NCBI GenBank assembly: GCA_036381155.1
Contig: DASVDJ010000035.1
Span: 73,755-137,754, forward strand
Direction: 5' to 3'
Source: Vicinamibacterales bacterium
GTDB taxonomy: Bacteria; Acidobacteriota; Vicinamibacteria; Vicinamibacterales; JAENWD01
Length of the DNA: 64,000 nt
The position numbers and the translations under genes are program-made. The notes under the pieces were generated by a model. The model was not told the origin of the DNA, did no database searches, and saw nothing but the letters and a program-made list of their open reading frames with translations. Shown piece after piece: positions 14,238-28,970 of this stretch. Numbering within the stretch: the first letter of the stretch is position 1; each line of letters starts with the position of its first letter.

Positions 14238-15413
14238 TCAGCGATTCAGGCGGGGGCGGCGATCGGACGGCGAGTGCGCGTGCGCCAGGAGTCCGGCCGC
14301 AGCCGCTTCGCGAGCCTCCCGGCTGGGGGTGTACTCCGGTACGCCGGCCTGGAGATCGGCGAGCGCGGTCAGCGCGTCGTTGCGGCGGATATCGTCACGC
14401 AGGGCGCGCAGGACACGCCGGACCATCCGGACATCCGGTCGCGGCTGCCGGGCCGTCCAGATCCGGGGGTGCGACGTCCTGGCCAGGGACAGGCCGATGG
14501 TCGTCAGCTCTTCCCGCAGCTTCTCGCCCGGGCGCAGGCCGATATACCGGACCGGCACGCGTCGCAGGCCGATCGACTCCCCCCAGTTCTGGACGCGCTC
14601 GGCCAGATCGGCGATCCGCACCGGCTGCCCCATGTCGAGCCAGAGGATCTCCCCCGTCCGGCCCAGCAGGTCGGCCTTCACGATCAGCGACACCGCTTCC
14701 CGCGGCGTCATGAAATAGCGTGTGGCCCGCGGGTCGGTGAGCTCGATCGGCCGGCCGTCCCGCATCTGCTCGAGCATCAGCTCGAGCACGCTTCCGCTGC
14801 TCCCGAGCACGTTGCCGAAGCGGACGGCCACGACACGCGCGGAACGGCCCGCGGCCGTCAGCGCGACGAGCTCCGCCAGGCGCTTGGTCGCGCCCATCAC
14901 GCTGAGCGGCTGTGCCGCCTTGTCGGTGGAGACCTGGACGAACCGCGCGCCGCAGCCGGCCGCGGCGCGTGCGGCATGCCAGGTGCCGAACACGTTGGTG
15001 CGGACCGCACTCAGCACCGCGCGCTCGGCCATGGTGACGTGCTTGTACGCGGCGGCATGGTAGACGACGTCGGGCATCGTCCGCTCGCAGGCGTCGTCGA
15101 TGTCTCCCGCGCGACTGACGTCGCCGAGCACCGGCACGATGGGCACGTCCGGGCGCGACGCGCGCAGCTCGCGTTCGATGCGGAACAGGTTGTATTCCGA
15201 CTGATCGAAGAGCACGAGTCGCGCCGGCGCGCATTCGGCCAGCAGCCGCGCGAGCGCCGAGCCGATCGACCCGCCGGCGCCGGTCACGAGGAGACGGCTG
15301 CCCCGGAGCGCGCGGCGATCCGCGGCGCGCAGCAGGCCGCGCTCGCGCCGTCCGAGCAGCAGCTCCTGCAGGGAGACGCGCTCGTCGCTAGCGGGCTGCT
15401 TCAGCGGCTGCAC
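14238..15413 (-). CDS. NDP-sugar 4,6-dehydratase/epimerase, CapD/PglF/PseB family
   Basis: 391 aa. GTG start with AGGAGG 6 nt upstream. Rossmann motif LLVTGAGGSIGS, then YHAAAYKHV and FGNVLGSSGSV. Confidence 0.85.
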   Translation of the reverse strand: MQPLKQPASDERVSLQELLLGRRERGLLRAADRRALRGSRLLVTGAGGSIGSALARLLAECAPARLVLFDQSEYNLFRIERELRASRPDVPIVPVLGDVSRAGDIDDACERTMPDVVYHAAAYKHVTMAERAVLSAVRTNVFGTWHAARAAAGCGARFVQVSTDKAAQPLSVMGATKRLAELVALTAAGRSARVVAVRFGNVLGSSGSVLELMLEQMRDGRPIELTDPRATRYFMTPREAVSLIVKADLLGRTGEILWLDMGQPVRIADLAERVQNWGESIGLRRVPVRYIGLRPGEKLREELTTIGLSLARTSHPRIWTARQPRPDVRMVRRVLRALRDDIRRNDALTALADLQAGVPEYTPSREAREAAAAGLLAHAHSPSDRRPRLNR

Positions 15414-16092
15414 GCGGCTCCTCCTGCACGCTGACCTGCGGGTTCAGGACGACGATGTCGACGCGGCGGTTGCGGGCGCGATTCGCGTCCGAATCGTTCG
15501 GTACCCGCGGATGGAACTCCCCGTATCCCGCTGCCGACAGGCGGTCCGGGCTGATGCCGATCTGCTCGATGAAGAAGGCGACGACCGTCGTCGCGCGCGC
15601 GGTCGACAGCTCCCAGTTGGAGGCAAAGCGCGGGGTGTGGATCGGCACGTCGTCGGTGTGCCCCTCGACGCGGATTGCATGGGGGATGTCGATCAGCGTC
15701 ACGCCGATCTCGTGGAACACGCGGCGGGCGTCCTCGTCGAGGTCGGCGCGCCCGGTCTCGAAGCTGCCGGCCTCCCGTACCGTGATGACGAGACCGCGGC
15801 GGTCCTCCGACAGCTCGACCCTGTGTTCGCCGAGCTGGGCCAGCCGCCGCGCGAGCCGCTCGCGGACGTCGGCGAGCGAGCCGGCCGGTTCCGTCACGGT
15901 GTGGATCTCGGGCAGGACCGCCATGAGGGTCGCGTCCGTCACCTGGTGCTCCGCGAACGCCTGCTGGAAGGCGGCGACGGCCTTCTCCAGCTTTCGCTGA
16001 TCGACCGTCGAGATCGCGTACATCGTCACGAAGAACGCAAAGAGCAGGGTGATGAAGTCGGCGTACGAGATGAGCCACCGCTCGTGGTTCAC
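15388..16092 (-). CDS. motB: Flagellar stator protein MotB (set 2)
   Basis: 234 aa from GTG 16092, with GGAGG 7 nt upstream (a longer alternative starts at 16125). NHERWLISYADFITLLFAFFV and an OmpA-like C-terminus (NRRVDIVV). Confidence 0.85.
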   Translation of the reverse strand: MNHERWLISYADFITLLFAFFVTMYAISTVDQRKLEKAVAAFQQAFAEHQVTDATLMAVLPEIHTVTEPAGSLADVRERLARRLAQLGEHRVELSEDRRGLVITVREAGSFETGRADLDEDARRVFHEIGVTLIDIPHAIRVEGHTDDVPIHTPRFASNWELSTARATTVVAFFIEQIGISPDRLSAAGYGEFHPRVPNDSDANRARNRRVDIVVLNPQVSVQEEPRAAAEAAR

Positions 16093-16121
16093 CGCTTCGC
16101 CTCCGCGTTGCCGGCGCCGTC

Positions 16122-16934
16122 TCACGCCACCCTCCGGCGCGGCTGCCCCGGCTCCGCCGGGGTGTGGGCCAGCATGGCGCGCAGCTTCTCGTCGACCAGT
16201 CGCGGGTTCAGGCCGTCCTGGATGGCGAGGATGCCCTCCATCATCAGCTCGCGATGCCGTGCCGCCTCGCGGGCGCGGCCGCGCAGGCGCGCCGCGATCG
16301 GCAGGCAGAACAGGTTGGCCGCGCCGACGCCGTACACCGTCGCGACGAACGCGACGGCAATCCCTCCGCCGATGTGCTCGGGCTCGCTCAGGTGCTGCAT
16401 GGTCTGGATGAGACCGAGCACCGCGCCGAGGATGCCGAGGGTCGGCAGATACCCGCCGGCCGCCTCGAACACGCGCGCCGGCGCCTCGTCGTGTTCTTCC
16501 TGATGCTGAATCTCGAGCTCCATCATGTCGCGCAGCACCTGCGGCCGGGCGCCGTCCACGGCGTGCATCAGGTACTTGCGCAGGAACGGATCGGCGTGGT
16601 CATCCACCACGTTCTCCAGAGACATCAGGCCGTTCCGGCGCGCCTGTCCGGCGAGCCGGACGATCTCCTGCACGAGCGCGTCGGCGTTGACGGGACGCTC
16701 GAGGACGAGCGCGCGCAGGCTCCGGGCGGCCTGACGGATTTCGGCCCACGATGACCCGAGCAGCACGGCCCCGGCGGTGCCGCCGAAGACGATCAGCGCG
16801 GCCGCCGGCTGCAGGATCGACGAGAGCGTGCCCCCTTCGAGCGCCTGGCCGGCGCCCACGAGCGCCAGCCCGAGCGGCAGACCCAGGACCGCGGTCCACT
16901 GGAACCGCGTGCGCGCACGCCGCGTCACCGCCAC
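16122..16934 (-). CDS. motA: Flagellar stator protein MotA (set 2)
   Basis: 270 aa. GTG start with GGAGG 6 nt upstream. MotA family motifs (GGYLPTLGILGAVLGLI, AFVATVYGVGAANL). Confidence 0.88.
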   Translation of the reverse strand: MAVTRRARTRFQWTAVLGLPLGLALVGAGQALEGGTLSSILQPAAALIVFGGTAGAVLLGSSWAEIRQAARSLRALVLERPVNADALVQEIVRLAGQARRNGLMSLENVVDDHADPFLRKYLMHAVDGARPQVLRDMMELEIQHQEEHDEAPARVFEAAGGYLPTLGILGAVLGLIQTMQHLSEPEHIGGGIAVAFVATVYGVGAANLFCLPIAARLRGRAREAARHRELMMEGILAIQDGLNPRLVDEKLRAMLAHTPAEPGQPRRRVA

Positions 16935-17131
16935 GACTCGCCTCCCCGGCCGTCGAGCACGGCATGCTTGAAGCGGATGATGCGCTCGAGGATTTCGTCG
17001 GGCGTCTCCCGCACCATCAGCGTCTCGCCGTTCGCCAGCGAGATGAGGGTGTCGGGCGTCCGCTCGACGCTGTAGATCACGTCGACGTTCAGCAGCATGG
17101 CGGATCCATCGAGCCGCGTGACGGCAATCAT
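16925..17131 (-). CDS. flbD: Flagellar protein FlbD
   Basis: 68 aa. MIAVTRLDGSAMLLNVDVIYSVERTPDTLISLANGETLMVRETPDEILERI is the FlbD pattern. It lies immediately upstream of motA2, as in Firmicutes and spirochaetes. Confidence 0.8.
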   Translation of the reverse strand: MIAVTRLDGSAMLLNVDVIYSVERTPDTLISLANGETLMVRETPDEILERIIRFKHAVLDGRGGESWR

Positions 17132-17832
17132 GCGACCTCCCGCTGTTCGCGCACGCGATCCGCGGCGCGGATGATGCCCTGCAGCGGCACGCGTGTGGCC
17201 GTGCCGCCGGCTCGCCGAAGGACGGCGTCCATGTAGGCGAGGTCCTCGGGGGTGTCGATCGTCAGCCTGAGGTCCGGGCGGCAGAGGGCACGCGGCGCCC
17301 AGGGTTCGAGCGTGCGGAACCGGTTCTCCGGGCGTTTCAGGTACGGGGTGACGTGCTCGCGGTCGTAGGCGGAGGTCGCACGCTCCGCGGCCAGCAGCAG
17401 CGCCTGCGCCCGCATGCCTTCCACGGCGGCGCCAACCGGCAGACCGCGCTCGACGACGTAGTCGAGCGGCGCCGATCGCAGATGGGCCAGCACGCGGGCG
17501 GGCGCGTCGATGTCGACGCACGGGTTGTCGGCCGTCGCGCGGATCACGTAGACGGGCCGGAGGGCTTCGACAACCTCCACGAAGCGGCCGAGGACATCGG
17601 CATCCGGCCCGCGCAGGCACGGCACGCCGTGCGCGAGCGCCTCGTCCTCGAGGCCGTCGTCCTCCGCCCGCGTCGTCGTGGCCAGTACCAGCGGTGCGGC
17701 ACCTCCCGCGAGCAGACGGTCGAGGCACCGCGACAGCACGGACCGCCCTGCCACCGGGCGCAGCGCCTTGCCGGCCAGCCGGACCGAACCGAGCCGGGCC
17801 TGCAGGATGATGAGCGCGTCGGCCGCTCTCAT
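17128..17832 (-). CDS. Cytidylyltransferase (SpsF/PseF-like, CMP-nonulosonate synthetase candidate)
   Basis: 234 aa from ATG 17832 (ATGA overlaps at both ends). ALIILQARLGSVRLAGKALRPVAGRSVL is the N-terminal nucleotidyltransferase motif. Confidence 0.78.
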   Translation of the reverse strand: MRAADALIILQARLGSVRLAGKALRPVAGRSVLSRCLDRLLAGGAAPLVLATTTRAEDDGLEDEALAHGVPCLRGPDADVLGRFVEVVEALRPVYVIRATADNPCVDIDAPARVLAHLRSAPLDYVVERGLPVGAAVEGMRAQALLLAAERATSAYDREHVTPYLKRPENRFRTLEPWAPRALCRPDLRLTIDTPEDLAYMDAVLRRAGGTATRVPLQGIIRAADRVREQREVA

Positions 17833-18833
17833 GCGACGTCCTCCAGCCGCTGTGCCCCGGCGCGCAGCGCCGCCACGCGATCGTCGTCCAGGAAGATCGC
17901 TGCCTCGTAGCTCGTCATCCAGAACCCCGGTTCGAACCGGCCGATGGCGGGAGACACGCGCTCGCCGCTGGCCATGGCGACGAGCATCCCGGGAAAGTCG
18001 GCGCCGGCCGCCATCGTCAGCGGGATGCCGCCCGAGAACCGCGGGTTGATCTCGAAGACGACGGGCACGCCGTTGACGACGCGGCACTGGATGTTGACGG
18101 CGCCTGCGAAGCGCAGCGTCCGCGCACAGGAAAGCGCCAGCTCGATGAGCGCCGGGTCGTCCGCCGTGCGCCCGCGGTCGATGACGCCGGCCCGGATGAC
18201 CACGCGCTCGCGCGGGACGACGCTGATCGGCCGGCCGTCGAAGTCGCACAGCAGGTCGATGGTGAACTCCGGTCCGTCGAGGAACTCCTGCACGATCGGA
18301 TTCCGGACGTATTCGAGGAAGAACGCGAGCTCTCGCGGCGAACGTGCCCGAAACGCGCCGACGCCGCCCCGCCCGACGCGCGGCTTGACGAACAGCGGAA
18401 ACGTCGGCCTGGCGGGCAGGTCGTCCGGCAGCCACGTCGCGGCCGCGGCCAGTCCTTCGGCGCGCAGGTGCGTGCAGGTGGCGAGCTTGTCATTGCAGAT
18501 CGCCGCGGTCTCCGCCGGTGATACCGCGACGACGATGCCGCGTGCGGCGAAGGCATCGCGCGCGGACGCGAACCGCTCGAGCTCGTCGTCGATCGTCGGC
18601 ACCACGAGCCGGACCCGCTCCGCTTCGCAGATCCCGGCGATCACGTCGAGGTACTCCGGATCGTCCGACAGCGGGACCAGATACGAGCGATCCGCGACGT
18701 GCACCGCCGGCGAGAGCGGGTTGATGTCGGTGACGACCACTCGCCCACCACCCCGCGCGGCGAGGGCACGCTGGAAGCCCTGCACGAGCGCGACGCGGCG
18801 CGACGCCGCGGTGACGAGCACGTTACACGGCAC
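17829..18833 (-). CDS. ATP-grasp domain protein
   Basis: 334 aa, GTG start. ATP-grasp pattern: LFVKPRVGRGGVG, VQEFLDGPEFTIDLL, FEINPRFSGG. Confidence 0.8.
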   Translation of the reverse strand: MPCNVLVTAASRRVALVQGFQRALAARGGGRVVVTDINPLSPAVHVADRSYLVPLSDDPEYLDVIAGICEAERVRLVVPTIDDELERFASARDAFAARGIVVAVSPAETAAICNDKLATCTHLRAEGLAAAATWLPDDLPARPTFPLFVKPRVGRGGVGAFRARSPRELAFFLEYVRNPIVQEFLDGPEFTIDLLCDFDGRPISVVPRERVVIRAGVIDRGRTADDPALIELALSCARTLRFAGAVNIQCRVVNGVPVVFEINPRFSGGIPLTMAAGADFPGMLVAMASGERVSPAIGRFEPGFWMTSYEAAIFLDDDRVAALRAGAQRLEDVA

Positions 18834-19878
18834 GGCGCATCTCCGAATCGGCCACGGCGTCCCACTGAATGGCCTCGCCGGCTGCGATATCGCGCAGAAG
18901 GACGCAGCCGATCAGCCGGTCGATGTCCGAAGCCGGAACGCCACGCGCAGGCCGCAACGCGACCAGGTCGGTTTCCCGGAGCACGTCGCCGCGGGCGAGC
19001 GCGCGCACGGCGTGCAGCGCGCGGCGGCTGGGGACGAGATTCGGCGACTCCGCGTCCAGGCACGTCTTCGTGCCATCCCCCAGGGCCAGCCGGGTGCGCT
19101 CGGCAGCGGCGATGGCGGCGCGCAGCTCGTCGGGAGTCGACGACACCGCGCGGTCGATGGCCGTGCTGTCCGCCTGGTCGACGATGTGACGCTCGTAGAT
19201 CGAGGCGCCGAGAGCGGCCGCGACGACGATCGCGGGGCTGAACGTGCCGTGGTCCGACAGGCCGACGGGACGGCTGGTCGCACGCGCGAGCGTGGCGATC
19301 GCGGCGAGGTTCTCCTGGCCCTCGGGCACGGGATAGGCGGACACGCAGTGCAGTACCGCGATGTCGCGCGCGCCCGCGTCGGCTGCCCAGTCCACGGCGC
19401 GCCGGACTTCGTCGAGGGAGCTCATCCCCGTCGAGAGCACGAGCGGCACGCCGGTGCGCGCCACGCGCTCGATCAGGCGGCGGTGCGTCAGGTCGCCGCT
19501 CGCAATCTTCCAGGCATCCACGCCGACGCGCTCGAGCAGGTCGACGGCGCGATCGTCGAAAGGCGTCGACATGAACGCCAGGCCGTGCGCCCGCGCGCGC
19601 GCCGCGACGATCCGGTGCGCCTCCTCGTCGAGCTCGAACGTCCGGAAGAAGTCGCGCAGCGAGCCCGCGGCCACATGGGCGGGGGCCGGACAGTTCGCGG
19701 CGACGAGTCCGTCGGCGTGCAGCGTCTGGAGCTTCACCGCGGACGCGCCGGCGGCAGCGGCCGCGTCGACGAGCGCGCACGCGAGATCGGGCGACCCGCC
19801 GTGGTTCAGCCCGATCTCGGCGATGACGAACATCGGCTGTCCGGGGCCGACACGGCGTCCGGCAATCTCACACGTCAT
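18823..19878 (-). CDS. pseI: Nonulosonic acid synthase (PseI/NeuB family)
   Basis: 351 aa from ATG 19878. MFVIAEIGLNHGGS, WKIASGDLTH, and a C-terminal SAF-like domain. Confidence 0.9.
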   Translation of the reverse strand: MTCEIAGRRVGPGQPMFVIAEIGLNHGGSPDLACALVDAAAAAGASAVKLQTLHADGLVAANCPAPAHVAAGSLRDFFRTFELDEEAHRIVAARARAHGLAFMSTPFDDRAVDLLERVGVDAWKIASGDLTHRRLIERVARTGVPLVLSTGMSSLDEVRRAVDWAADAGARDIAVLHCVSAYPVPEGQENLAAIATLARATSRPVGLSDHGTFSPAIVVAAALGASIYERHIVDQADSTAIDRAVSSTPDELRAAIAAAERTRLALGDGTKTCLDAESPNLVPSRRALHAVRALARGDVLRETDLVALRPARGVPASDIDRLIGCVLLRDIAAGEAIQWDAVADSEMRRAV

Positions 19879-20557
19879 GAACGACCTCCGCATCGAGCAG
19901 CCGCGCAACCGCCGCCGGCACGTCGGCGACGGATACGACGGTTTCGTCGGCCGGCCCGGTAACACCCGCCGCAACGGACCGGTGCGCGCCGCGGCGCACG
20001 CGAACGGTCCGCAGACCGGCCGCCCGTGCGCCGTCGATGTCGCACCAGGGGTCGTCACCGGCCATCACCGCACGCGCCGGCGTCACGCCGAGCGTCCGGC
20101 AGACCTCGTGAAACGCTGCCGGGTCGGGCTTCCCTTCGCTGACCTCGTGGGCATACACGACGACGTCGACGAGCGGGACGAGCCCGAGCGCGGCGACCTT
20201 CGCCCGCTGGACCTGCGGCAGTCCGTTCGTCAGCACGCCGACCCGCCAGCGCTCCCGCGCAGCGCCCAGCGCACGCCGGGCGGCGCCGGGCAGCCGCAGT
20301 TCCGGCCGGTGTGTGCGGTAGACGGCAAGCAGCTCGTGGACCATCTCGGGCCCTCCGCCGAGCGCCGCGGCCAGCCGCTGGAGCGCCGCCGCCCGCGCGC
20401 CGCGACGGAGCGCCGCCCGCAGATGGCCGAACGCTTCCCGGTGGTCCATCCCGTACCGGGTCTCGACGTGGCGCGCGATGGCGGCGTACCCGCTCCACGC
20501 AAACCGGCGCTCCGGATAGAGCGTGTCGTCGAGATCGAAAATCACGGCGCCGGTCAT
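19868..20557 (-). CDS. HAD-superfamily hydrolase
   Basis: 229 aa from ATG 20557. HAD motifs: VIFDLDDTLY, LTNG, GKPDP, MAGDDPWCDIDGA. Confidence 0.8.
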   Translation of the reverse strand: MTGAVIFDLDDTLYPERRFAWSGYAAIARHVETRYGMDHREAFGHLRAALRRGARAAALQRLAAALGGGPEMVHELLAVYRTHRPELRLPGAARRALGAARERWRVGVLTNGLPQVQRAKVAALGLVPLVDVVVYAHEVSEGKPDPAAFHEVCRTLGVTPARAVMAGDDPWCDIDGARAAGLRTVRVRRGAHRSVAAGVTGPADETVVSVADVPAAVARLLDAEVVHDV

Positions 20558-21495
20558 ACGCGCCCGCTCCCGGCCAGGCGCATCAGCGCCGACGCCACAC
20601 GCTCTGCTCCGCGGCCATCCACCAGCCGGCGGCCGCTGCGGCCCAACCGCTCGGCCGTCGACGGATCGCCGAGCAACGCCGCGGCAGCCCGCGCAATCCC
20701 CCGCGGCGATCGGGGCGATGCCGCGATCGCGGCCCCTGCTCTTTCGAACGCGGCGACCGCGGCTCGCTGACCCGCGACGACCGGCACGGCGACGACAGGC
20801 ACCCCGAGAGCGGCCGCTTCGTAGAGCGTCACGCCGCCCGCGACGACGGCGACGTCGGCCCGCGCGAGTGTGGGAGCCAGGCTGCGCCGTGGACCGAGCA
20901 GCTCGACGCCGGCCGCCGTGCGGTCGCTCGATGCGGCAAACCCCGCGGCGATCTGCACCTGAACCGCTGGACACGCCGCGCGGAGCGCCGTTGCGATCGA
21001 CCGCGCCAGCCCGACCCGTGGACCGCCGCCAAGCGCAATGACGACGCGCTCGCGACAGCGGACACGGCGGGTTCGGGCAATCGCCGGGTCGACGATCATG
21101 AATCGCGGGCCGAGCAGGGTGCGCCGCGCCCCGGCGATCGGACGCCGCGCGGCCAGGCTCCCGTCGATCGCGAGGTCGGAGGCGACCGGCGCGATGCCGG
21201 CGTCGTGCACGCTCGCGACCGGCACACCTCGCCGGCGCGCCGCGCCCAGCCAGCGCGCGGCGTCGCTGGCGACCGGCGTGTCGAGCACGACGAGGTCCGG
21301 GCCGAGTGCGTCGACCAGCGACGGGCCGCCGTGCACGACGCGAACGCGGCGGCGCGAGAGTCCGGGCAGGGGCCCGCCGAGCACGCTGATCCACACTCGT
21401 GCGTCGAGGGCGTTGCCGAGGCGGGCCGCACGGACGATGTGTCCGAAGCCGCGGCCCGGCCCGCATGCCACGCGAAACAGAACGCGAGGTTTCAT
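20554..21495 (-). CDS. pseG: PseG-like UDP-sugar hydrolase / GT28-type protein
   Basis: 313 aa from ATG 21495. The N-terminus VLFRVACGPGRGFGHIVRAARLGNAL and a C-terminal GT-B half (VVAGGVTLYEAAALGVP) match the family. Confidence 0.68.
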   Translation of the reverse strand: MKPRVLFRVACGPGRGFGHIVRAARLGNALDARVWISVLGGPLPGLSRRRVRVVHGGPSLVDALGPDLVVLDTPVASDAARWLGAARRRGVPVASVHDAGIAPVASDLAIDGSLAARRPIAGARRTLLGPRFMIVDPAIARTRRVRCRERVVIALGGGPRVGLARSIATALRAACPAVQVQIAAGFAASSDRTAAGVELLGPRRSLAPTLARADVAVVAGGVTLYEAAALGVPVVAVPVVAGQRAAVAAFERAGAAIAASPRSPRGIARAAAALLGDPSTAERLGRSGRRLVDGRGAERVASALMRLAGSGRV

Positions 21496-22664
21496 GCGCG
21501 GCCGGCGATCTCCGTCCGCACCGCCTCGATCACCTGATCGACCTCGGTGTCGGTCAGGGCCGCGGACAACGGAAGCGACAACGTCGTGTCCGAGACGCGC
21601 TCGGCGTGCGGGAACATGCCCCGGGCAAGGCCGAACCGCCCGGCATAGAACGAATGGAGGTGCAGCGCGCGGAAGTGGATGCTGGTGCCGATGCCGCGTG
21701 CGGCGAGGGCCTGCTGCAGCGCGTCGCGCGACCGCCCGCACGCCGCCTCCTCGATCAGCACGGCATACAGGTGATGCGCGTGGCGCTCGCCGGGGCCGAC
21801 CGGCGGCGGCGTGACGATCGGCAGATCGGCAAAGGCCTCGTCGTACCGGGCGGCAATCGCGGCGCGGCGCCGGTAGAGCGCCTCGAGCCGTTCGAGCTGC
21901 CGCAGGCCGATCGCCGCCTGCAGATCCATCATGTTGTACTTGAAGCCGGCCAGCAGGACGTCGTAGTGCGGCGACCCGTTCTGCGCGTACCGGCTCCAGC
22001 CGTTGCGGCTCAGGCCGTGCAGCGCCGCCGTCCGCACGAACGCCTCGGCGTCGGCGTGCGGCGTCGTCAACATCCCCCCTTCGCCCGTCGTGAGGTTCTT
22101 CGTCGAGTAGAAGCTGAAGCAGGTGAAGTCGGCCGTCGTGCCGACCTTGCCCGCGTTCGACACCGCCTCGATCGCATGGGCCGCGTCCTCGATGAGCGTC
22201 AGCCCGCGTTCGGCGGCGAGGCGGCGGAGCGCCGCGATGTCGGCCGGGTGGCCGCCCAGATGCACCGCCACGATCGCGCGGGTGCGCGGCGACATCGCCT
22301 GGCGCACGGCCTGCGGATCGAGATTGCGCGTGACCGGGTCGACGTCGGCGAAGACCGGCGTGGCGCCGGCATGGATGATCGCGTTCGCGGTCGCACAGAA
22401 CGTGAGCGGTGTGGTGATGACCTCGTCGCCCGGACCGATGCCGGCGGCGAGCAGCGCCAGGTGCAGCGCGGCGGTGCACGAGTTGAGCGCCACCGCGCGC
22501 GGAGCGCCGATCCAGGCCGCGAAGGCCGTCTCGAACGCCGCCACCCGCGGACCGGTCGTCAGCCAGCCCGACTCCAGCGTCGCGATCACCTCGGTGATCT
22601 CGGCCTCGCTCAGCGCCGGACGCGCCAGGGCCACGTACGCGCCGCTGCTCGTCGTCACGGACAT
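21492..22664 (-). CDS. pseC: DegT/DnrJ/EryC1/StrS-family sugar aminotransferase (PseC-like)
   Basis: 390 aa. CTAALHLAL, a FSFYSTKNLTTGEGG PLP-lysine region, and the typical family length. Confidence 0.9.
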   Translation of the reverse strand: MSVTTSSGAYVALARPALSEAEITEVIATLESGWLTTGPRVAAFETAFAAWIGAPRAVALNSCTAALHLALLAAGIGPGDEVITTPLTFCATANAIIHAGATPVFADVDPVTRNLDPQAVRQAMSPRTRAIVAVHLGGHPADIAALRRLAAERGLTLIEDAAHAIEAVSNAGKVGTTADFTCFSFYSTKNLTTGEGGMLTTPHADAEAFVRTAALHGLSRNGWSRYAQNGSPHYDVLLAGFKYNMMDLQAAIGLRQLERLEALYRRRAAIAARYDEAFADLPIVTPPPVGPGERHAHHLYAVLIEEAACGRSRDALQQALAARGIGTSIHFRALHLHSFYAGRFGLARGMFPHAERVSDTTLSLPLSAALTDTEVDQVIEAVRTEIAGRA

Positions 22665-23445: not shown

Positions 23446-25035
23446 TCAGCTCGCTGCGGTTGCCGCGGCCCGTCCGGAGAAGATGCGCGCGAGCAGCCGC
23501 GCACGCCTGGCGGCCATCGCCCACTCCTCCCGGTAGAAGTGCGCCAGCGACCGTACGTCATGTCCGGCAGCCGACTCGAGGCGGGTGCGCAGGTACGCGA
23601 CGACCGGCAGCAGGATTGGAGTGACGGTAGCCGCCGTGTGCGCCACCTCGAACGCGCGCCCCAGTTCGGTGGCATGCGTCTCTGCGGCCCGGTTCGCGCC
23701 ATCGATGCGCCGGGCGATCGCCGCCGCCCGATCTGCTCGTACGGCGAACCGCTCCAGCGCCCCGATCAGATCCCGATCGTCCAGCGCGAGCTCCTCGAGC
23801 GCGAGGCCGTCGGGCGCCGGCACGCCGGGCACCGGCATCGTCGTCTCCCACATCCGCGCGAGCGCGCGGCGCTCGATGCTCTGGCGCCGGCCGGCGGGCT
23901 CCCACACCGGCCGGTACTCAATCCGTCCGGTAGCGGTCCGTTCCGCCACGAGGACCCTGGCCCGAGCCGGCCGCACGAGCGGACCGTCGCCGAGCGCGAA
24001 GCGCGCGAGACCGGCAATCTCGGCTTCGTTCAGATCGTCACGGCACGTCAGCTGATGGCAGGACGCGCCGGCGGCGCACGGGAAGCAGGCCGCCGTCGGC
24101 TCCACCGCGACGGAGCCGGCCGCATACGGACCGGTCTCGTGCACGAACACCGGTCCCGTGGACAGGTCGAGCACCCGCGTGCCGACGGCCACCGCGACGT
24201 GCATCGTCCCGGTGTCGTTCGTGACCAGGAGCCGCGCGTGCCCGAGCAGCGCCGCCAGCTCCGGCACCGACGTCTCGCCCGCCGCGTCGATGGCCGGCCG
24301 GTCGAGCCGGGCGAGCGCACGACCCACGAGCGGACGCTCCGACGCGGATCCGACGAACACCATCGTGCCTGCGGATGCGGGCAGCAGATTCGCCATGGCG
24401 GCAACCCGCTCCGGCGGCCAGCGCTTGCGCTCGTCGCTGGCACCGAGCTGCAACGCGATCAGCGGTTCCCCTGTCCATCCCCGCGTGCGGAGCCAGGCCT
24501 CCATCTTCGTCCGGGCCTCGACCGGCACGTCGATCTCGAGCCTGCCGTCGTCGATCGGCACGCCGGCGGTCCATTGGAAGAGGTCGACGAGGTTGATGCA
24601 GCCGTACGTCCGCGCCAGCTGGCTCGCCCAGAAGTACGCCATCCAGGGATGGCGGACCACACGCGTGCGATCGGGCGCGATCAGGGCGCCGCGGACCTCG
24701 CGGGCCCGCACCCGCGCGCTGAGCAGGTTCGCCGTCGGGCTGCCGGTCAGATTGAGCACGAGGTCGAACGGCTCGGTGCCGAGCGAGTCGAGGAACGCAC
24801 GCAGTTCGCGCCTCGCCGCCGTCCAGTCGGTCCTGACGGATTCGCCCAGGCTCCTGAGGGGGAAGACTGCCAGCTCGTCGTAGAGCGCACGCGGTACCGG
24901 TGTGTGGCTGAAGCCGTCGAACACCATCAGCGTGATGCGCGCCCCCGGATGCGCACGACGCAGGCCACGCAACATCGGCGTGGTCTGCAGCATGTCGCCG
25001 AGCCGGCAGAGCTGGATGACGAGGATGCGGGTCAT
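23446..25035 (-). CDS. GT9 (heptosyltransferase-like) glycosyltransferase with long C-terminal extension
   Basis: 529 aa. MTRILVIQLCRLGDMLQTTPMLRGLR and LLVTNDTGTMHVAVAVG are GT9 hallmarks. A Cys cluster (CFPCAAGASCHQLTC) and about 190 extra residues follow. Confidence 0.8.
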   Translation of the reverse strand: MTRILVIQLCRLGDMLQTTPMLRGLRRAHPGARITLMVFDGFSHTPVPRALYDELAVFPLRSLGESVRTDWTAARRELRAFLDSLGTEPFDLVLNLTGSPTANLLSARVRAREVRGALIAPDRTRVVRHPWMAYFWASQLARTYGCINLVDLFQWTAGVPIDDGRLEIDVPVEARTKMEAWLRTRGWTGEPLIALQLGASDERKRWPPERVAAMANLLPASAGTMVFVGSASERPLVGRALARLDRPAIDAAGETSVPELAALLGHARLLVTNDTGTMHVAVAVGTRVLDLSTGPVFVHETGPYAAGSVAVEPTAACFPCAAGASCHQLTCRDDLNEAEIAGLARFALGDGPLVRPARARVLVAERTATGRIEYRPVWEPAGRRQSIERRALARMWETTMPVPGVPAPDGLALEELALDDRDLIGALERFAVRADRAAAIARRIDGANRAAETHATELGRAFEVAHTAATVTPILLPVVAYLRTRLESAAGHDVRSLAHFYREEWAMAARRARLLARIFSGRAAATAAS

Positions 25036-26721
25036 CGTGCCCTCACGACTTCCCTCACGTCGGCGAGGATGCGCAGCTCGATCTCCTCGTCGTCGAGCCG
25101 GGGCGCCTGCGCCGCGCGCGCCAGCGCGTCATCGAGTGATTCCTGCGGGGCCGGCGTCGCACCGGGCTGCAGGTGAGGCGGCAGCGCCTGACGCAGCAGT
25201 TCGGTCACGCGGTGCTCGCAGGTGTGCTCGCGCAACACACGCTCGCGGGCTCGTGCGGCAATCGCGACCGCGTCCTCGGCCCGATCCAGGTAGTGCTCTG
25301 CCAGCGCGCGCATCTCCGCGGCGCTGCGGAACGTGACCATCTCGCCGGCATCGAACAGGGCCGGCAGCGGCTCGCGGTGATCGACCAGCTGAAATGCGCC
25401 ACACGCGGCCAGCGCGAACGTCCGCGCGTTGACGAAATCGGGCTGCGGATCCAGTCCCATGACATGGGCCGCGGCGTGCATGTTCAGGTTGACGCGTGTG
25501 GCCGCGACGATCCGGCGCGTCGCTTCCGTATCGACCCGCCCGGGCTCACCCCGGCAGGGAGCCAGCGGCGTGGTCTCCCCCCCCATCGCCCCACACACGG
25601 AGACCGAGGTCGCGTACCGCTTCGAGCAGATGACGGCGATTCAGGTGTGGCGCACCCACGAAGCTCACCGAGGCCCCAAGGCGCTGCCGCTCGGCGTCGT
25701 CGAGCGCAACAGGCAGGTGGACTGCGGGGTCGCACGCCAGCGGCAGGTAGTGGACGCGCACGGCGCCGGCTGCCGCAATCTGGTCGAGAGCGGCCCCGGG
25801 CTGAATCGCGAAGAAGGTGTCGTAGAAGCGCGCGACCTCGCGCCAGGACGGATGCGCGCGCACGTTCTCGACGAACCAGCACGCGGTCCGGATGCCGGCT
25901 TTCCGCAGCGCTTCGAGCGGAGTGACGCTGAGCGGCGCCCGCCCGACCGTCAGCACGAGGTCGGCCGGCCACTCACACGCGAGCCGGACGATGGCGTCGC
26001 CGAGCAGGAGCGTGAACTGCTCCTGAAGCCCGGTACGTGTGCCATCTCCTACGGGAAGAGTCCGGAATGCCTCCTGCGTGCCTGCGAACGCGCGTCCGTC
26101 GAATCGCCGGACCTCGCAGCCGGTCTGCCGCGCCGCCCGTTCGACAGAGTCCGCCACGTCCGGCGAGCGACCGGCCGTCCCACCGACGACGAGCACGCGG
26201 GGCGCTCGCGCGACCGGCAGTGAGGCCCAGCGTTCGGCCAGCGCCTGCAACGCAGGAGTCACGGCGGCGCTGGGCGTGTGCACGACGACAGCCGGTGCCG
26301 CCGCCCGCAGCCGGGCGAGCGCACCCGGCGCGGCGAGATCCTCCAGCGCGATGAGCGGCACCTGCTCGATCAGGTCGGACAGGTCCCGCGCCCGGAGGAC
26401 GCCGGCGATCACGGCGGCGCGCTCGACGACGGCCGCGACGACGACACCACGCCGGCGGAGAGCTTCGGCGAAATAGCCCGTCCCCAGGCCGAGGAGGACC
26501 ACGCGCGCGGCGGTCACATCGGCGGCGGCCGCTTCGGCCACCTCACGGGGGCGGCGGCGGCTGTCGAGCGGCCGACCGTGCAGTTCGAGCACCGGCTCCC
26601 CTGTTGCGGCCGGCGCGGTCGACGGGACGTCACCCCCGGCGATGATCTCCAGCACGCGCGCGGCCGTGTCCGGCACACGGCTGCGCAGGATCGCCAGGTT
26701 CCAGTCGAACAGCGCGCTCAT
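25032..26721 (-). pseudogene. CgeB-like/DUF3880-type glycosyltransferase split by a frameshift (two ORFs, 25546-26721 and 25032-25598)
   Basis: The upstream ORF ends ...LGLRVWGDGGGDH. The downstream frame continues ...GETTPLAPCRGEPGRVDTEATRRIVAATRVNLNMH...NARTFALAACGAFQLVD...REHTCEHRV, the C-terminal half of the CgeB-type GT fold. Removing one G from the G8 run fuses them. Confidence 0.7.
25577..25584 (-). repeat. Homopolymeric G8 (C8 on the plus strand) at the frameshift point
   Basis: The plus strand reads tggtctCCCCCCCCatcg. The frame change between the two half-ORFs maps exactly here. Confidence 0.9.
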
Positions 26722-26853
26722 GCGGGCAGCGCAGGCGGGCGGACGGCCGACGCCGCCATCCGGACGAGCGCCGGTGTGCCGACAGCACCAGCCGTGGTTC
26801 CGGGAACGCCGACACCGGCGTGATCGGCGGGTCGAACGCGCCGCGCCGGACGC

Positions 26854-26881
26854 TCAAGGCCCCTCACCCTCCGACGATTAC
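26854..26881 (+). promoter_or_regulatory. Sigma-28-type promoter of flagellin gene 1
   Basis: TCAAG-N15-aCGATTAC, collinear with the fliC2 promoter. Confidence 0.55.
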
Positions 26882-26919
26882 CCGCGCGTCCTGCCACGGG
26901 CCCGACTCCCGCGGCGGCG

Positions 26920-26955
26920 GACCGGCTGGGATGCCGGTCGCGACTCTCAAGGAGG
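26920..26955 (+). promoter_or_regulatory. Flagellin-1 leader: GGA-loop hairpin plus AAGGAGG SD (candidate CsrA sites)
   Basis: Stem GACCGGC/GCCGGTC (26920-26926 / 26933-26939) with loop UGGGAU. The SD GGAGG lies at 26951-26955, about 20 nt downstream. Confidence 0.45.
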
Positions 26956-26961
26956 AATGAC

Positions 26962-27765
26962 ATGGCTTCGTTTTCGGTCGTCAGCAACATCTCGTCGGCG
27001 AACGCGCAGGCGAACCTGATCGCCACGAACATCGGGCTGAACAAGGCGCTGACGCGTCTCTCGAGCGGGTTCCGCATCAACTACGCCGGCGACGATGCGG
27101 CGGGCCTCGCGGTCGCGAACGCGTATCGCAACGACCTCGCGATCATCAACCAGGGGATCCGGAACGCCAACGACGGCCTTTCGACTCTCCAGATCAAGGA
27201 CGGTGCGCTGAACAACATCTCCACGCTGCTCGACCGCCTGGCCACCCTGGCCACGCAGGCGGCCTCCGGTGAGACGAGCGACGCGAGCCGCGCGACGCTG
27301 GACCAGGAGTACCAGGACGTCCTCGCCGAGATCACCCGCGAGTCCACCGTCGCGGGGCTCCAGTCCGACGCGGGCTTCTCGGTCTTCGTGAGCAACAACG
27401 GGGCCAATGGCAAGATCACCGGCACCATCTCGGGCGCCTCGGTGGCCAGCCTCAATCTGACCGGCACGGCGCTGACGACGCAGGGCGGCGCGGAAGCGGC
27501 CGTCGCGGCCGTCGCCTCGGCGGTGACGCTGCTCGGCCAGGCGCAGAGCACGATCGGTGTGCTGCAGAACCGCCTGCAGTTCGCGATTTCGCTCGCGCAG
27601 TCGCAGGTCGTCAACAACAAGGCGGCCGAGAGCCGCATCCGCGACGCCAACATCGCGGAGGAGACGGCCAACATGACCCGGTTCAACATCCTGAGCCAGA
27701 GCGGCATCGCGGCACTGGCGCAGGCGAACCAGACGTCGGCGTCGGTGCTGTCGCTGCTGCGGTAA
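26962..27765 (+). CDS. fliC: Flagellin (short, 267 aa), copy 1
   Basis: MASFSVVSNISSANAQANL...LSSGFRINYAGDDAAGLAVANAYR at the N-terminus and ...AESRIRDANIAEETANMTRFNILSQSGIAALAQANQ..LSLLR at the C-terminus are the conserved flagellin D0/D1 termini. Confidence 0.95.
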   Translation: MASFSVVSNISSANAQANLIATNIGLNKALTRLSSGFRINYAGDDAAGLAVANAYRNDLAIINQGIRNANDGLSTLQIKDGALNNISTLLDRLATLATQAASGETSDASRATLDQEYQDVLAEITRESTVAGLQSDAGFSVFVSNNGANGKITGTISGASVASLNLTGTALTTQGGAEAAVAAVASAVTLLGQAQSTIGVLQNRLQFAISLAQSQVVNNKAAESRIRDANIAEETANMTRFNILSQSGIAALAQANQTSASVLSLLR

Positions 27766-27770
27766 CCCTG

Positions 27771-27799
27771 ACGGGGGCGCCCGCAGCGGGCGTCCCCGT
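27771..27799 (+). terminator. Stem-loop after flagellin gene 1
   Basis: A 13-bp stem (one G-U pair) ACGGGGGCGCCCG / CGGGCGTCCCCGT with a 3-nt loop, 5 nt after the TAA. Confidence 0.5.
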
Positions 27800-27920
27800 T
27801 CCCGCTGTCTCCGGACGGCGGGGCGACAACCGCTGACGGAACGGCGGCGCCGCGCGCCGCCAGTCAGGAGGGCCGGACCGGGTTCCCGGGGGCACGTGGA
27901 CCCCGGGGCCCGGGTCCGAT

Positions 27921-27948
27921 TAAAGCCGTACGTCCGTTCTCCGATTAC
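27921..27948 (+). promoter_or_regulatory. Sigma-28-type promoter of flagellin gene 2
   Basis: TAAAG-N15-CCGATTAC, a close match to TAAA-N15-GCCGATAA. Confidence 0.65.
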
Positions 27949-27984
27949 CTGGCCGCCAGAGAGACCGGGCCCGCACGGGTCCGG

Positions 27985-28020
27985 CGGCCGGCATGGATGC
28001 CGGCCGGGCAGTCAAGGAGG
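27985..28020 (+). promoter_or_regulatory. Flagellin-2 leader: GGA-loop hairpin plus AAGGAGG SD (candidate CsrA sites)
   Basis: A 9-bp stem CGGCCGGCA/TGCCGGCCG (27985-27993 / 27998-28006) with the 4-nt loop UGGA. The SD AAGGAGG lies at 28014-28020. Confidence 0.5.
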
Positions 28021-28026
28021 ATCGGT

Positions 28027-28830
28027 ATGGCTTCGTTCTCTGTCGTCAGCAACATCTCGTCCGCGAATGCGCAGGCCAACCTGGTGCAGACCAACCTCGG
28101 TCTGAACCGGGCCCTCACCCGTCTGTCCAGCGGATTCCGCATCAACTACGCCGGCGACGATGCCGCGGGCCTCGCGGTTGCCAACGCGTACCGCAACGAC
28201 ATCGCGATCATCAATCAGGGCATCCGCAACGCGAACGACGGGCTGTCCGGTCTGCAGATCAAGGACGGCGCGCTCGCGAACATCTCGACGCTGCTCGACC
28301 GCCTGGCCACCCTGGCCACGCAGGCGGCCTCCGGAGAGACGAGCGACGCCAGCCGCGCGACACTGGACCTCGAGTACCAGGACGTCCTGCGCGAAATCGA
28401 CCGCGAGGCGACGGTGGCCGGGCTGACGGCCGACCATGGCTTCTCGGTCTTCGTGAGCAACAACGGCGCAAACGGGAAAATCACGGGCACGATTGCCGGC
28501 ACGTCAACGGCCGCCCTCAACCTGACCGGCACGGCGCTGACGACGCAGGCCGGCGCGGAAGCAGCCGTCGCGGCCGTCGCCTCGGCGGTGACGCTGCTCG
28601 GTGAGGCACAGGGCACGATCGGCGTGCTGCAGAACCGCCTGCAGTTCGCCATCGCGCTCGGACAGTCGCAGGTCGTCAACAACAAGGCGGCGGAGAGCCG
28701 CATCCGCGACGCCAACATCGCGGAGGAGACGGCCAACATGACGCGCTACAACATCCTGAGCCAGAGCGGCATCGCGGCCCTGGCGCAGGCGAACCAGTCC
28801 TCGTCGATGGTCCTGTCGCTGCTGCGATAG
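28027..28830 (+). CDS. fliC: Flagellin (short, 267 aa), copy 2
   Basis: It starts at ATG 28027 (MASFSVVSNISS), matching copy 1 with an SD 6 nt upstream. The 27997 ORF-track start is rejected. About 90% identical to copy 1 by eye. Confidence 0.95.
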   Translation: MASFSVVSNISSANAQANLVQTNLGLNRALTRLSSGFRINYAGDDAAGLAVANAYRNDIAIINQGIRNANDGLSGLQIKDGALANISTLLDRLATLATQAASGETSDASRATLDLEYQDVLREIDREATVAGLTADHGFSVFVSNNGANGKITGTIAGTSTAALNLTGTALTTQAGAEAAVAAVASAVTLLGEAQGTIGVLQNRLQFAIALGQSQVVNNKAAESRIRDANIAEETANMTRYNILSQSGIAALAQANQSSSMVLSLLR

Positions 28831-28871
28831 GCCGACGTCCGCGGGCCGCCACACATCGGCGGCCCGTCGGC
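28831..28871 (+). terminator. Stem-loop after flagellin gene 2
   Basis: Inner 8-bp stem GGGCCGCC/GGCGGCCC with a 7-nt loop, and an outer 6-bp stem GCCGAC/GTCGGC. It begins directly after the TAG. Confidence 0.5.
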
Positions 28872-28900
28872 CAGACGGCCGGACCGAGCGGATGACGGCG

Positions 28901-28916
28901 TGGCCCGGTTCTCGCA
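28901..28916 (+). promoter_or_regulatory. Sigma-54-type promoter upstream of fliD
   Basis: TGGCCC-ggttc-TCGCA with exact GG-N10-GC spacing, about 55 nt before the fliD ATG and downstream of the fliC2 terminator. Confidence 0.5.
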
Positions 28917-28970
28917 TGGGCGAGAGGGGCCGCGCCGGCTCGAGTCCCGGCCGGGCAGGAGAACGTGAGC

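What the first reader, a model, noticed from the sequence alone, without database searches (positions are those of the whole stretch)
25546..25598. Frameshift at a G8 homopolymer splits a glycosyltransferase beside the flagellin genes
On the coding (minus) strand, ...GTG TGG GGC GAT GGG GGG GGA GAC... runs into a stop 10 codons after the tract. In the neighbouring frame the protein continues for another 180 or so residues (RIVAATRVNLNMH, NARTFALAACGAFQLVD, REHTCEHRV), which are the C-terminal half of a CgeB/DUF3880-type glycosyltransferase. Deleting one G (G8 to G7) gives a continuous protein of about 570 aa (VWGDGGETTPLAP...). Three explanations are possible: a homopolymer sequencing or assembly error, a fixed pseudogene, or slipped-strand ON/OFF phase variation. 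Poly-G phase variation is well known for genes in the Campylobacter flagellin-glycosylation locus. I did not notice another run this long while reading, but I did not count exhaustively. The N-terminus (FDWNLAILRSRVPDTAARV...LELHGRPLDSRRRPREVAEA...VVLLGLGTGYF) also loosely resembles the N-terminal module of Maf-type flagellin glycosyltransferases.
Basis: partly seen in the sequence, partly recalled or inferred. Interest (0 to 1): 0.65.

Follow-up and report, generated by a model that had tools for sequence, protein, structure and literature searches.

The report
Frameshifted flagellin-locus glycosyltransferase gene at G8
A run of eight G's that replaced an invariant tryptophan codon splits a putative flagellin-sugar-adding enzyme gene in a soil-type Acidobacterium; it looks like a recent gene-killing mutation, not an evolved on/off switch, so it is fairly ordinary.

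Summary
A minus-strand G8 lies at 25577-25584 and is the only run of 7 or more in the window. It splits a 562-codon gene into 391-aa and 184-aa ORFs. The gene encodes a Maf-N-terminal-like domain fused to a CgeB-type GT-B glycosyltransferase. It sits between two flagellin genes and a nonulosonic-acid operon in a Vicinamibacterales-like genome.

The tract lies on the codon of a Trp that is invariant in 139/139 homologs. Relatives read GGC/GGG-TGG-GAG; here T became GG. So the "G7 repair" encodes W381G, not a wild-type enzyme. The nearest relatives (90% DNA identity and further) lack the tract.

The part downstream of the frameshift still shows purifying selection (dN/dS 0.20, no indels), so the lesion is recent. 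An independent Logan assembly reproduces G8. No G6, G7, G9, G10 or Trp allele exists in 15 billion public proteins. One contig from another run ends inside the tract after exactly 7 G's. That is the only hint of length heterogeneity.

Best reading: a recent loss-of-function frameshift (about 0.55). Rivals are a homopolymer miscall (about 0.2) and true phase variation (about 0.12). Read pile-ups would decide.

The parts
25577..25584 (-). G8 homopolymer (C8 on the plus strand). It occupies the place of GGN-TGG-G in homologs, with T replaced by GG at the invariant Trp381 codon, and adds one base to the gene.
25032..26721 (-). The whole disrupted gene (1690 nt; 1689 nt and 562 codons in the nearest relative). 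It encodes a Maf-N-like domain plus a CgeB-type GT-B glycosyltransferase.
   Evidence: codon alignment to L001 has zero gaps after removing one G; AF2 pLDDT 94.6; GT4-like GT-B matches.
25546..26721 (-). ORF A, 391 aa. It covers the N-terminal Maf-like domain, the N-terminal Rossmann half of the GT-B fold and the first two strands of the C-terminal half. It then reads 12 out-of-frame codons and a TGA at 25546-25548.
   Evidence: and (secondary structure: E350-355, H360-367, E374-377 precede the break).
25032..25586 (-). ORF B, 184 aa from an ATG that the extra G itself brings into frame (A and T of GAT plus G1). It holds the rest of the C-terminal Rossmann domain with the invariant N411, N413, H415, D428, R433, Q444 and D447.
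   Evidence: The GGGG lies only 2 nt before the ATG, so there is no well-spaced Shine-Dalgarno sequence.
26206..26721 (-). Residues 1-172, the Maf N-terminal-like domain.
   Evidence: (pLDDT 96.7; 5MU5 is the top and only significant hit).
25481..25481 (-). The only difference in 6138 nt between the window and the SRR26663136 strain. The window has ATG (Met414) and the other strain GTG (Val). The column is L/V/I in all 59 homologs and lies inside ORF B.
23446..25035 (-). Intact 529-aa GT9-like (heptosyltransferase-like) gene. Its ATG overlaps the stop of the split gene (ATGA). It is a conserved downstream partner of this gene family.
26962..27765 (+). Flagellin gene 1, divergently transcribed from the split gene.
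28027..28830 (+). Flagellin gene 2, followed by fliD (28965-30347) and fliS (30351-30764).
14238..22664 (-). Nonulosonic-acid (pseudaminic/legionaminic-type) genes downstream in the same orientation: PseC-like, PseG-like, HAD, NeuB, ATP-grasp, cytidylyltransferase and PseB-like, interrupted by motA/motB.

Best explanation
The gene is a recently inactivated copy (young pseudogene, or strain-level loss-of-function allele) of a putative flagellin glycosyltransferase. The ancestral sequence GG(G/C)-TGG-GAG (Gly-Trp-Glu) lost the T of an invariant Trp codon to G, which created a G7 run (W381G). The new run then gained one G by replication slippage, or T became GG in one event. The resulting G8 shifts the frame. 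Translation stops 10 codons later, after strand 2 of the C-terminal Rossmann domain. The 391-aa product therefore lacks most of the nucleotide-sugar-binding half and cannot be catalytic. The 184-aa remainder has no convincing ribosome-binding site. Translational coupling (ATGA) to the conserved GT9-like partner gene is broken. Shown here: the lesion, its position on the invariant codon, its absence from relatives, and its youth. Inferred: the order of the mutations, the loss of activity, and the polarity on downstream genes. A G8 run is intrinsically slippage-prone, so rare revertants to G7 are expected. They would still carry W381G.
For: 1. The G8 tract and the split gene are shown.
2. The frameshift lies inside Glyco_trans_1_2 and after E374-377 of a confident GT-B model.
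3. About 80 database homologs are single ORFs of 560-600 aa. The nearest is exactly 562 aa.
4. Trp at the tract position is invariant in 59/59 aligned homologs and in 80/80 further genomic homologs from several phyla. The DNA of the two nearest relatives reads GGC TGG GAG and GGG TGG GAG with no tract.
5. The window protein also departs from 8 of 77 columns that are at least 90% conserved, including invariant P181. Most homologs depart from 0-2.
6. dN/dS against L001 is 0.22 before the frameshift and 0.20 after it, with no indels, so the break is recent.
7. An independent assembler (Logan, SRR25158368) gives the identical G8 over 4836 identical bases. A second run (SRR26663136) also has at least 7 G's and no T.
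8. Exact look-ups find only the two G8 products and no G6, G7, G9, G10 or Trp alleles. A local search around the tract finds none either.
9. The only SNP between the two strains is a non-synonymous change inside ORF B.
10. No paralog in the window could substitute. No other split gene was found among the six overlapping same-strand ORF pairs checked.
Against: No reads were available, so the G8 count rests on assemblies that may share reads. The relative-rate test shows no significant acceleration in the window lineage (30 versus 24 unique changes), and dN/dS is low, so there is no positive signature of relaxed selection beyond the conserved-site changes. The partner GT9 gene and the whole sugar pathway are intact, which fits a very recent, reversible or spurious break. 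The SRR26663136 contig ends inside the tract after exactly 7 G's. A G7/G8 mixture would produce that pattern in a de Bruijn graph.
Confidence: 0.55

Rival explanations
1. Homopolymer-length miscall. The true sequence is G7, so the gene is intact but carries W381G. Far less likely, the true sequence is GGGTGGG. The frameshift would be a sequencing or polishing artefact, most plausible if the 222-kb contig came from long reads.
For: A single-base error in the longest homopolymer of the window is the classic artefact. The downstream half looks fully functional (dN/dS 0.20, no indels). All neighbouring genes are intact. A Logan contig from another run breaks exactly in the tract, as noisy homopolymer calls would cause. 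Several related Vicinamibacterales MAGs in the genome collection are long-read-style assemblies with megabase contigs.
Against: The Logan k-mer assembly of SRR25158368 reproduces G8 with 0 differences in 4836 nt. Comparisons with three Logan contigs (about 13.6 kb of alignment; L003 and L005 lie within the range L004 covers, so about 7.8 kb of distinct window sequence) show no indel at any other homopolymer. Loss of the T is seen in two runs. Even under this rival the invariant Trp is gone, so the gene is still abnormal.
Confidence: 0.2
2. Slipped-strand phase variation. The G tract is a contingency switch, with G7 or G10 as ON and G8 or G9 as OFF. The population would toggle one flagellin-glycosylation step, as poly-G tracts do in the Campylobacter flagellar glycosylation locus.
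For: Tract length is in the mutable range. In C. jejuni NCTC11168, 29 poly-G/C tracts of 7 or more are the phase-variable loci (PMC4965091; review PMC8355987). The gene sits in a flagellin-glycosylation island. G7 and G10 restore the frame. The downstream half is conserved. The SRR26663136 contig stops after exactly 7 G's, the point where G7 and G8-or-longer variants diverge in a de Bruijn graph.
Against: Every in-frame state lacks a Trp that is invariant in 139/139 homologs. The tract is absent from the nearest relatives. It is not a recurrent feature of the family: G/C runs in 80 homologous loci are at or below Markov expectation (43 versus 64.5 for runs of 7 or more; 13 versus 16.9 for runs of 8 or more). 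No alternative-length allele exists in public assemblies. It is the only tract of 7 or more in 64 kb. At 72% GC such a tract arises by chance at about 0.1-0.5 per 64 kb.
Confidence: 0.12
3. The gene is still expressed despite G8, by one of two routes. One is +1 ribosomal frameshifting or transcriptional slippage on the G run. The other is a two-piece enzyme, with ORF B translated from the ATG at 25586.
For: GGG-G allows +1 re-pairing of tRNA-Gly. An in-frame ATG begins ORF B. The downstream sequence is intact.
Against: No homolog has a shift site or a split; all are single ORFs. The ATG is a by-product of the insertion and has GGGG only 2 nt upstream. The break lies inside the C-terminal Rossmann domain, not at the inter-domain hinge where known split GT-B enzymes (the Alg13/Alg14 type; from my own knowledge) divide. 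The product would still lack Trp381.
Confidence: 0.04

Closest known systems
Poly-G/C contingency loci of the Campylobacter jejuni flagellar glycosylation island (maf and related genes; PMC4965091, PMC8355987, PMC13130089)
   Same: Both have an intragenic G run of 7 or more in a gene of a flagellin-glycosylation locus, where a one-base change switches the reading frame.
   Different: In Campylobacter the tracts are conserved across strains, variable in length, numerous per genome, and sit where in-frame lengths give an active protein. Here the tract is unique to one lineage, replaces an invariant Trp, and is seen only as G8. It occurs in a 72% GC genome, where such runs arise by chance.
Ordinary homopolymer frameshift pseudogenes and homopolymer assembly errors in MAGs
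   Same: Both show a single extra base in the longest local homopolymer, intact single-ORF homologs elsewhere, and an otherwise intact neighbourhood.
   Different: The run itself is newly created by a substitution in a critical codon. So two lesions coincide within 4 nt, and the second was probably promoted by the first.
Maf flagellin nonulosonic-acid transferases (structure 5MU5, Magnetospirillum magneticum)
   Same: The N-terminal domain matches: Pfam Maf_flag10_N hits family members, 5MU5 is the best structural match, and the gene neighbours flagellin and nonulosonic-acid genes.
   Different: The catalytic part is a CgeB-type GT-B (DUF3880 + Glyco_trans_1_2, GT4-like fold), not the Maf MAF_flag10 domain.
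FlmG flagellin glycosyltransferases of Caulobacter and Brevundimonas (PMC7591256; bioRxiv 10.1101/2022.03.25.485807)
   Same: Both are bipartite proteins of about 560-600 aa, with a non-catalytic N-terminal module followed by a GT-B domain, encoded with flagellin and Pse/Leg genes. In FlmG the N-terminal module binds flagellin and the GT-B selects the donor.
   Different: FlmG's N-terminal module is TPR, whereas here it is Maf-N-like. Sequence homology between the two GT-B domains was not tested because no FlmG sequence was at hand.
CgeB/YkvP spore-maturation glycosyltransferase family (Pfam PF13524, PF12996)
   Same: Both Pfam domains are matched above the gathering score, and JGI names the homologs 'spore maturation protein CgeB'.
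   Different: The organism is non-sporulating and Gram-negative-type, the context is flagellar, and the protein has an extra Maf-like N-terminal domain.

Membership tests
SSR (homopolymer) phase-variable contingency locus | Intragenic mononucleotide tract long enough to slip (7 or more G/C) | tested here: met
   G8 at 25577-25584.
SSR (homopolymer) phase-variable contingency locus | Tract length varies within or between populations of the same strain | tested here: inconclusive
   Only G8 products are on record, and G6, G7, G9 and G10 products are absent. L003 is G8. The L004 contig ends after 7 G's, which is compatible with heterogeneity but also with coverage or technical loss. No reads were available.
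SSR (homopolymer) phase-variable contingency locus | An in-frame tract length encodes the functional protein | tested here: inconclusive
   G7 and G10 restore the frame, but they replace a Trp that is invariant in 139/139 homologs. Activity of W381G cannot be tested here, and loss of function is likely.
SSR (homopolymer) phase-variable contingency locus | The tract is conserved at the site in related strains or species, or recurs in the family | tested here: not met
   L001 has GGC TGG GAG and L002 has GGG TGG GAG. There is no excess of G/C runs in 80 homologous loci.
SSR (homopolymer) phase-variable contingency locus | The genome carries many such tracts, beyond compositional expectation | tested here: not met
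   There is one run of 7 or more in 64 kb, against 0.1-0.5 runs of 8 or more expected by chance. The rest of the genome was not available.
Frameshift pseudogene | The reading frame is disrupted relative to intact single-ORF homologs, with no compensating indel | tested here: met
   One search shows zero gaps after removing one G, and one search shows a single gap at the tract.
Frameshift pseudogene | Signs of relaxed constraint | tested here: inconclusive
   There are 8 of 77 conserved-column departures and one strain-level non-synonymous SNP in ORF B. However, dN/dS is 0.20 and the relative-rate test is not significant.
Programmed frameshift (recoding) gene | The shift site and two-frame organisation are conserved among homologs | tested here: not met
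   All homologs examined are single ORFs without a tract at this site.
CgeB-type glycosyltransferase (Pfam DUF3880 + Glyco_trans_1_2) | Both Pfam domains above the gathering score, and a GT-B fold | tested here: met
   PF13524 scores 99.8 bits (cut-off 25) and PF12996 scores 29.2 bits (cut-off 25.2) on the G7 repair. They hit 60/60 and 59/60 family members. Foldseek gives GT4 GT-B hits at E 1e-10.
Maf (motility accessory factor) flagellin glycosyltransferase | Maf N-terminal domain | tested here: met
   PF20157 hits 14 of 60 family members, though not the window protein itself at E<=0.01. The N-domain model has 5MU5 as its best match (E 3.5e-4, TMq 0.61).
Maf (motility accessory factor) flagellin glycosyltransferase | Central MAF_flag10 / MptE-like catalytic domain | tested here: not met
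   No such Pfam hit appears in the window protein or in any of the 60 family members. The catalytic part is GT-B.
FlmG-type flagellin glycosyltransferase | N-terminal TPR flagellin-binding domain plus C-terminal GT-B (PMC7591256) | tested here: not met
   There is no TPR hit. The GT-B part is present at fold level. Sequence relatedness to FlmG was not tested.
Flagellin glycosyltransferase (functional class) | Transfers a sugar to flagellin | not testable with these tools
   The evidence is context only. The gene is adjacent to 2 flagellins and Pse/Leg-type genes. Flagellin, FliD or FliS lies within 5 kb in 36 of 80 homologous loci.

The most novel reading that the evidence does not exclude
A newborn contingency locus in an environmental Acidobacterium. 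A single T-to-G change created a slippery G7/G8 tract in a flagellin glycosyltransferase. W381G is tolerated, and natural Vicinamibacterales populations now switch one flagellin-glycan step on and off, perhaps under phage or predator pressure. This would be SSR phase variation of flagellar glycosylation outside host-associated, low-GC pathogens, caught at its origin.
Probability: 0.1. Interest if true: 0.6.

Novelty: new member of a known kind. Interest (0 to 1): 0.25.

Why it matters
If the G8 is real, this strain has lost, very recently, one of two conserved glycosyltransferases next to its flagellins. In Campylobacter, Helicobacter and Caulobacter (my own knowledge, plus PMC7591256) such a loss would alter or abolish flagellin glycosylation and possibly motility. 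That is a routine kind of strain-level gene loss.

The practical value is as an annotation caution. "Repairing" the gene by deleting one G gives a protein that lacks an invariant residue.

The wider gene family deserves more attention than the frameshift. It combines a Maf-N-like domain with a CgeB-type GT-B, is almost always followed by a GT9-like gene, and often lies beside flagellin genes in Acidobacteriota, Nitrospirota, Nitrospinota and Bdellovibrionota. It is an uncharacterised candidate class of flagellin glycosyltransferase.

Tried and rejected
1. A pattern scan of JGI metagenome contigs for the flanks with a variable gap returned 17 stretches. Only the already known L001 contig was a true relative, so it gave no strain-level tract variants.

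2. Exact-protein look-ups of the neighbouring genes found the strain in only three Logan runs: GT9, DUF8042, FliS and ORF B returned contigs, and the flagellin had no record. Only one contig spans the tract.

3. Exact look-up of hypothetical G6, G7, G9, G10 and ancestral-Trp products, each with Met or Val at 414 where relevant, found none on record. A local homology search around the tract found no partial G7-type product.

4. I tested whether poly-G tracts recur in this gene family or its islands. Several runs were seen (for example G8 in frame in the L034 homolog, and G16 near a contig end in L029). Overall counts are at or below Markov expectation, so I rejected the idea.

5. I looked for long-standing decay. 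dN/dS of the downstream half is 0.20 and the relative-rate test is not significant, so the gene is not an old pseudogene.

6. tblastn found no paralog in the window.

7. I checked for other split genes as a sign of poor assembly. Six overlapping same-strand ORF pairs turned out to be complete separate genes.

8. The genome-contig scan did not return the window's own genome. FlhA is 74-76% identical to named Vicinamibacterales proteins.

9. A paper search for the three SRA accessions and for a CgeB-flagellin link found nothing useful.
Full report
**Observation.** On the minus strand the sequence reads GTG TGG GGC GAT GGGGGGGG AGACC, and the G8 occupies window 25577-25584.
- The upstream frame (ORF A, 25546-26721, 391 aa) meets a TGA ten codons after the tract.
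- A second frame (ORF B) stays open to 25032. It gives 184 aa from an ATG at 25586 that is formed by the A and T of GAT plus the first G.
- Deleting one G gives 562 aa and adding two gives 563 aa.
- This is the only homopolymer of 7 or more in the 64-kb, 72% GC window. G/C runs number 59 of length 5, 5 of length 6, 0 of length 7 and 1 of length 8.
- Under order-3 or order-5 Markov models, or a log-linear extrapolation, 0.1-0.5 runs of 8 or more are expected per 64 kb. Related Vicinamibacterales loci do contain G/C 8-runs. So the tract alone is uncommon, not extraordinary. What matters is where it sits.

**What the gene is.** The repaired protein matches Pfam DUF3880 (residues 281-357) and Glyco_trans_1_2 (362-509), both above the gathering score. 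The break at about residue 380 falls inside the second domain.
- An AlphaFold model built on 60 homologs is confident (pLDDT 94.6). Its best PDB matches are GT4-type GT-B enzymes such as PimB', BshA and TreT (E about 1e-10).
- The break comes right after strand E374-377, the second strand of the C-terminal Rossmann domain. ORF A therefore lacks most of the donor-binding half, including the invariant N411, N413, H415, D428, R433, Q444 and D447.
- Residues 1-172 form a separate domain. Pfam Maf_flag10_N hits 14 of 60 family members. A sequence profile weakly hits the Maf structure 5MU5. A confident model of the domain alone (pLDDT 96.7) has 5MU5 as its only significant PDB match (E 3.5e-4, TMq 0.61).
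- No MAF_flag10 catalytic domain and no TPR domain is present.
- So the protein joins a Maf-like N-terminal module to a CgeB-type GT-B. The architecture is analogous to the bipartite FlmG (TPR + GT-B; PMC7591256), but it is a member of neither family.

**Context.** The gene is divergent from two flagellin genes, which are followed by fliD and fliS. It heads a same-strand series of genes:
- a 529-aa GT9-like gene, whose start overlaps the split gene's stop as ATGA;
- DUF8042, PseC-like, PseG-like, HAD, NeuB, ATP-grasp and cytidylyltransferase genes, then motA/motB and a PseB-like gene.

FlhA from the window is 74-76% identical to named Vicinamibacterales proteins, and the named homologs of the split gene are Vicinamibacteria or Acidobacteriota. 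The organism is therefore probably a Vicinamibacterales acidobacterium. Its own genome was not recovered from the species-representative collection.

**Comparative evidence on the tract.** About 80 database homologs are single ORFs of 560-600 aa. The nearest, P0001, is 81% identical, exactly 562 aa and has the same synteny with two flagellins.
- At the tract position every homolog has Gly-(Asp/Glu/...)-(Gly/Glu)-Trp. The Trp is invariant in 59/59 aligned proteins and in 80/80 further homologs from GTDB species representatives of several phyla.
- The DNA of the two nearest relatives reads GAT GGC TGG GAG and GAG GGG TGG GAG, against GAT GGGGGGGG AG in the window.
- The tract therefore arose by replacing the T of the Trp codon with GG. 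This was either T to G (creating G7 and W381G) followed by +1 slippage, or a single complex event.
- The window protein also departs at 8 of 77 columns that are at least 90% conserved (P181G, G185R, A260G, Q261R, Y359H, W381G, P432A, E436A). Its sister P0001 departs at 5, and the other homologs inspected at 0-2, apart from N-terminally truncated P0003.

**Age of the lesion.** After removing one G, the gene aligns codon for codon with L001 without gaps. dN/dS is 0.22 upstream and 0.20 downstream of the tract. The downstream frame keeps a coding GC3 signature. A relative-rate test shows no significant acceleration. So the downstream half has not decayed and the frameshift is young.

**Is G8 real, and does the length vary?**
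- A Logan assembly of SRR25158368 (L003) is identical to the window over 4836 nt, including G8.
- A 12.1-kb Logan contig from SRR26663136 (L004) differs at one base in 6138 and ends inside the tract after exactly seven G's. Other Logan contig ends are not at homopolymers.
- Seven G's is where a G7 variant (preceded by T) and a variant of G8 or longer (preceded by G) would branch in a de Bruijn graph. This is a hint of heterogeneity, but coverage loss or platform noise at the run could give the same result.
- It does show that loss of the Trp T is shared by a second strain.
- The single SNP between the strains is Val414 to Met inside ORF B, at a column that is L/V/I in all homologs.
- Exact look-ups in about 15 billion proteins find only the two G8 products (sources NCBI and Logan). 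None of the hypothetical G6, G7, G9, G10 or ancestral-Trp products is present. A local search finds no partial G7-type product, and the JGI metagenome scan found no further strain.
- Six overlapping same-strand ORF pairs in the window were checked and none is a split gene.

**Weighing the explanations.**
- Recent loss-of-function frameshift (about 0.55). This fits best. The lesion destroys an invariant codon, it is lineage-specific, it is the only allele assembled, and two coupled mutations within 4 nt are easily explained because the first creates a slippery run.
- Homopolymer miscall (about 0.2). This cannot be excluded without reads. It would leave an intact gene that still carries W381G.
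- Evolved phase variation (about 0.12). Its support is tract length, the locus type and the contig break. Against it are the lost Trp, the absence of the tract in relatives, the lack of recurrent tracts in 80 homologous loci (43 versus 64.5 expected for runs of 7 or more), and the lack of any alternative allele.
- Recoding or a two-piece enzyme (about 0.04). There is no conservation of a shift site, the ATG has no properly spaced Shine-Dalgarno sequence, and the break is not at a domain boundary.

**Comparison with what is known.** The mechanism resembles Campylobacter poly-G contingency genes (PMC4965091, PMC8355987), but it fails the tests for tract conservation and genome-wide excess of tracts, while length polymorphism and a functional in-frame state remain inconclusive. 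It is best filed as an ordinary young frameshift pseudogene, or an assembly error, in a non-ordinary gene family.

**Verdict.** Interest is low (0.25). Read pile-ups from the three named SRA runs are the decisive and inexpensive test.

Noticed in passing
window 23446-26721 (-); loci L023-L102: There is a conserved two-gene module. A homolog of the 529-aa GT9-like (heptosyltransferase-like) gene lies within 5 kb of the CgeB-type gene in 79 of 80 species-representative loci (Vicinamibacterales, Nitrospira, Nitrospina, Thermodesulfovibrionia, Bdellovibrionota and others). In 78 of them it is downstream on the same strand. In the window the two genes overlap by ATGA. Some loci seem to carry extra GT9-like copies upstream.
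   Followed up: partly
window 25032-26721 (-) and homologs P0001-P0080, L023-L102: The family (Maf_flag10_N-like domain + DUF3880/Glyco_trans_1_2 GT-B, about 560-600 aa) is widespread, with at least 570 hits among GTDB species representatives. Flagellin, FliD or FliS lies within 5 kb in 36 of 80 loci. No paper in the library links CgeB-type enzymes to flagellin. It is a candidate uncharacterised class of flagellin glycosyltransferase beside Maf and FlmG.
   Followed up: partly
window 25032-30347 vs L001: Synonymous divergence from the relative L001 is very uneven. dS is 0.48 for the glycosyltransferase, 0.05 and 0.13 for the two orthologous flagellins, and 0.23 for the fliD 5' part. This suggests recombination or gene conversion across the locus.
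   Followed up: no
window 25032-26721 (-) and P0001: Both the window protein and its sister P0001 change residues at columns that are nearly invariant elsewhere, twice at the same columns with different residues (G185 to R or D; P432 to A or S). The whole clade may be under altered or relaxed constraint, predating the frameshift.
   Followed up: partly
L034:5444-5451; L029:237-252; L048:11612-11621: Other loci carry long G runs. L034 has a G8 in frame inside the homolog at the VGPxxGG motif, in a 50% GC genome. L029 has a T8-G16 run 237 nt from a contig start, probably a poly-G sequencing artefact. L048 has a G10 just after a stop codon. Overall there is no enrichment.
   Followed up: partly
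window 11776-16934 (-): Two motA-like genes (11776-12657 and 16122-16934) and a motB (15388-16125) are interleaved with a PseB-like dehydratase (14238-15413) and a response-regulator/HD-domain gene (13050-14153). Stator genes therefore sit inside the sugar-biosynthesis stretch.
   Followed up: no
window 22416-22441: Logan contigs from two different runs (L003 and L005) both end within 25 nt of each other inside the PseC-like gene. No homopolymer is present there. This may mark a strain-variable breakpoint.
   Followed up: no
window 31356-33045 (-); L104: Downstream of fliS lie a 160-aa ORF without Pfam hits, a 320-aa GNAT acetyltransferase, CsrA and FliW, followed by a third flagellin-N-domain gene (299 aa, probably FlgL) and FlgK.
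   Followed up: no
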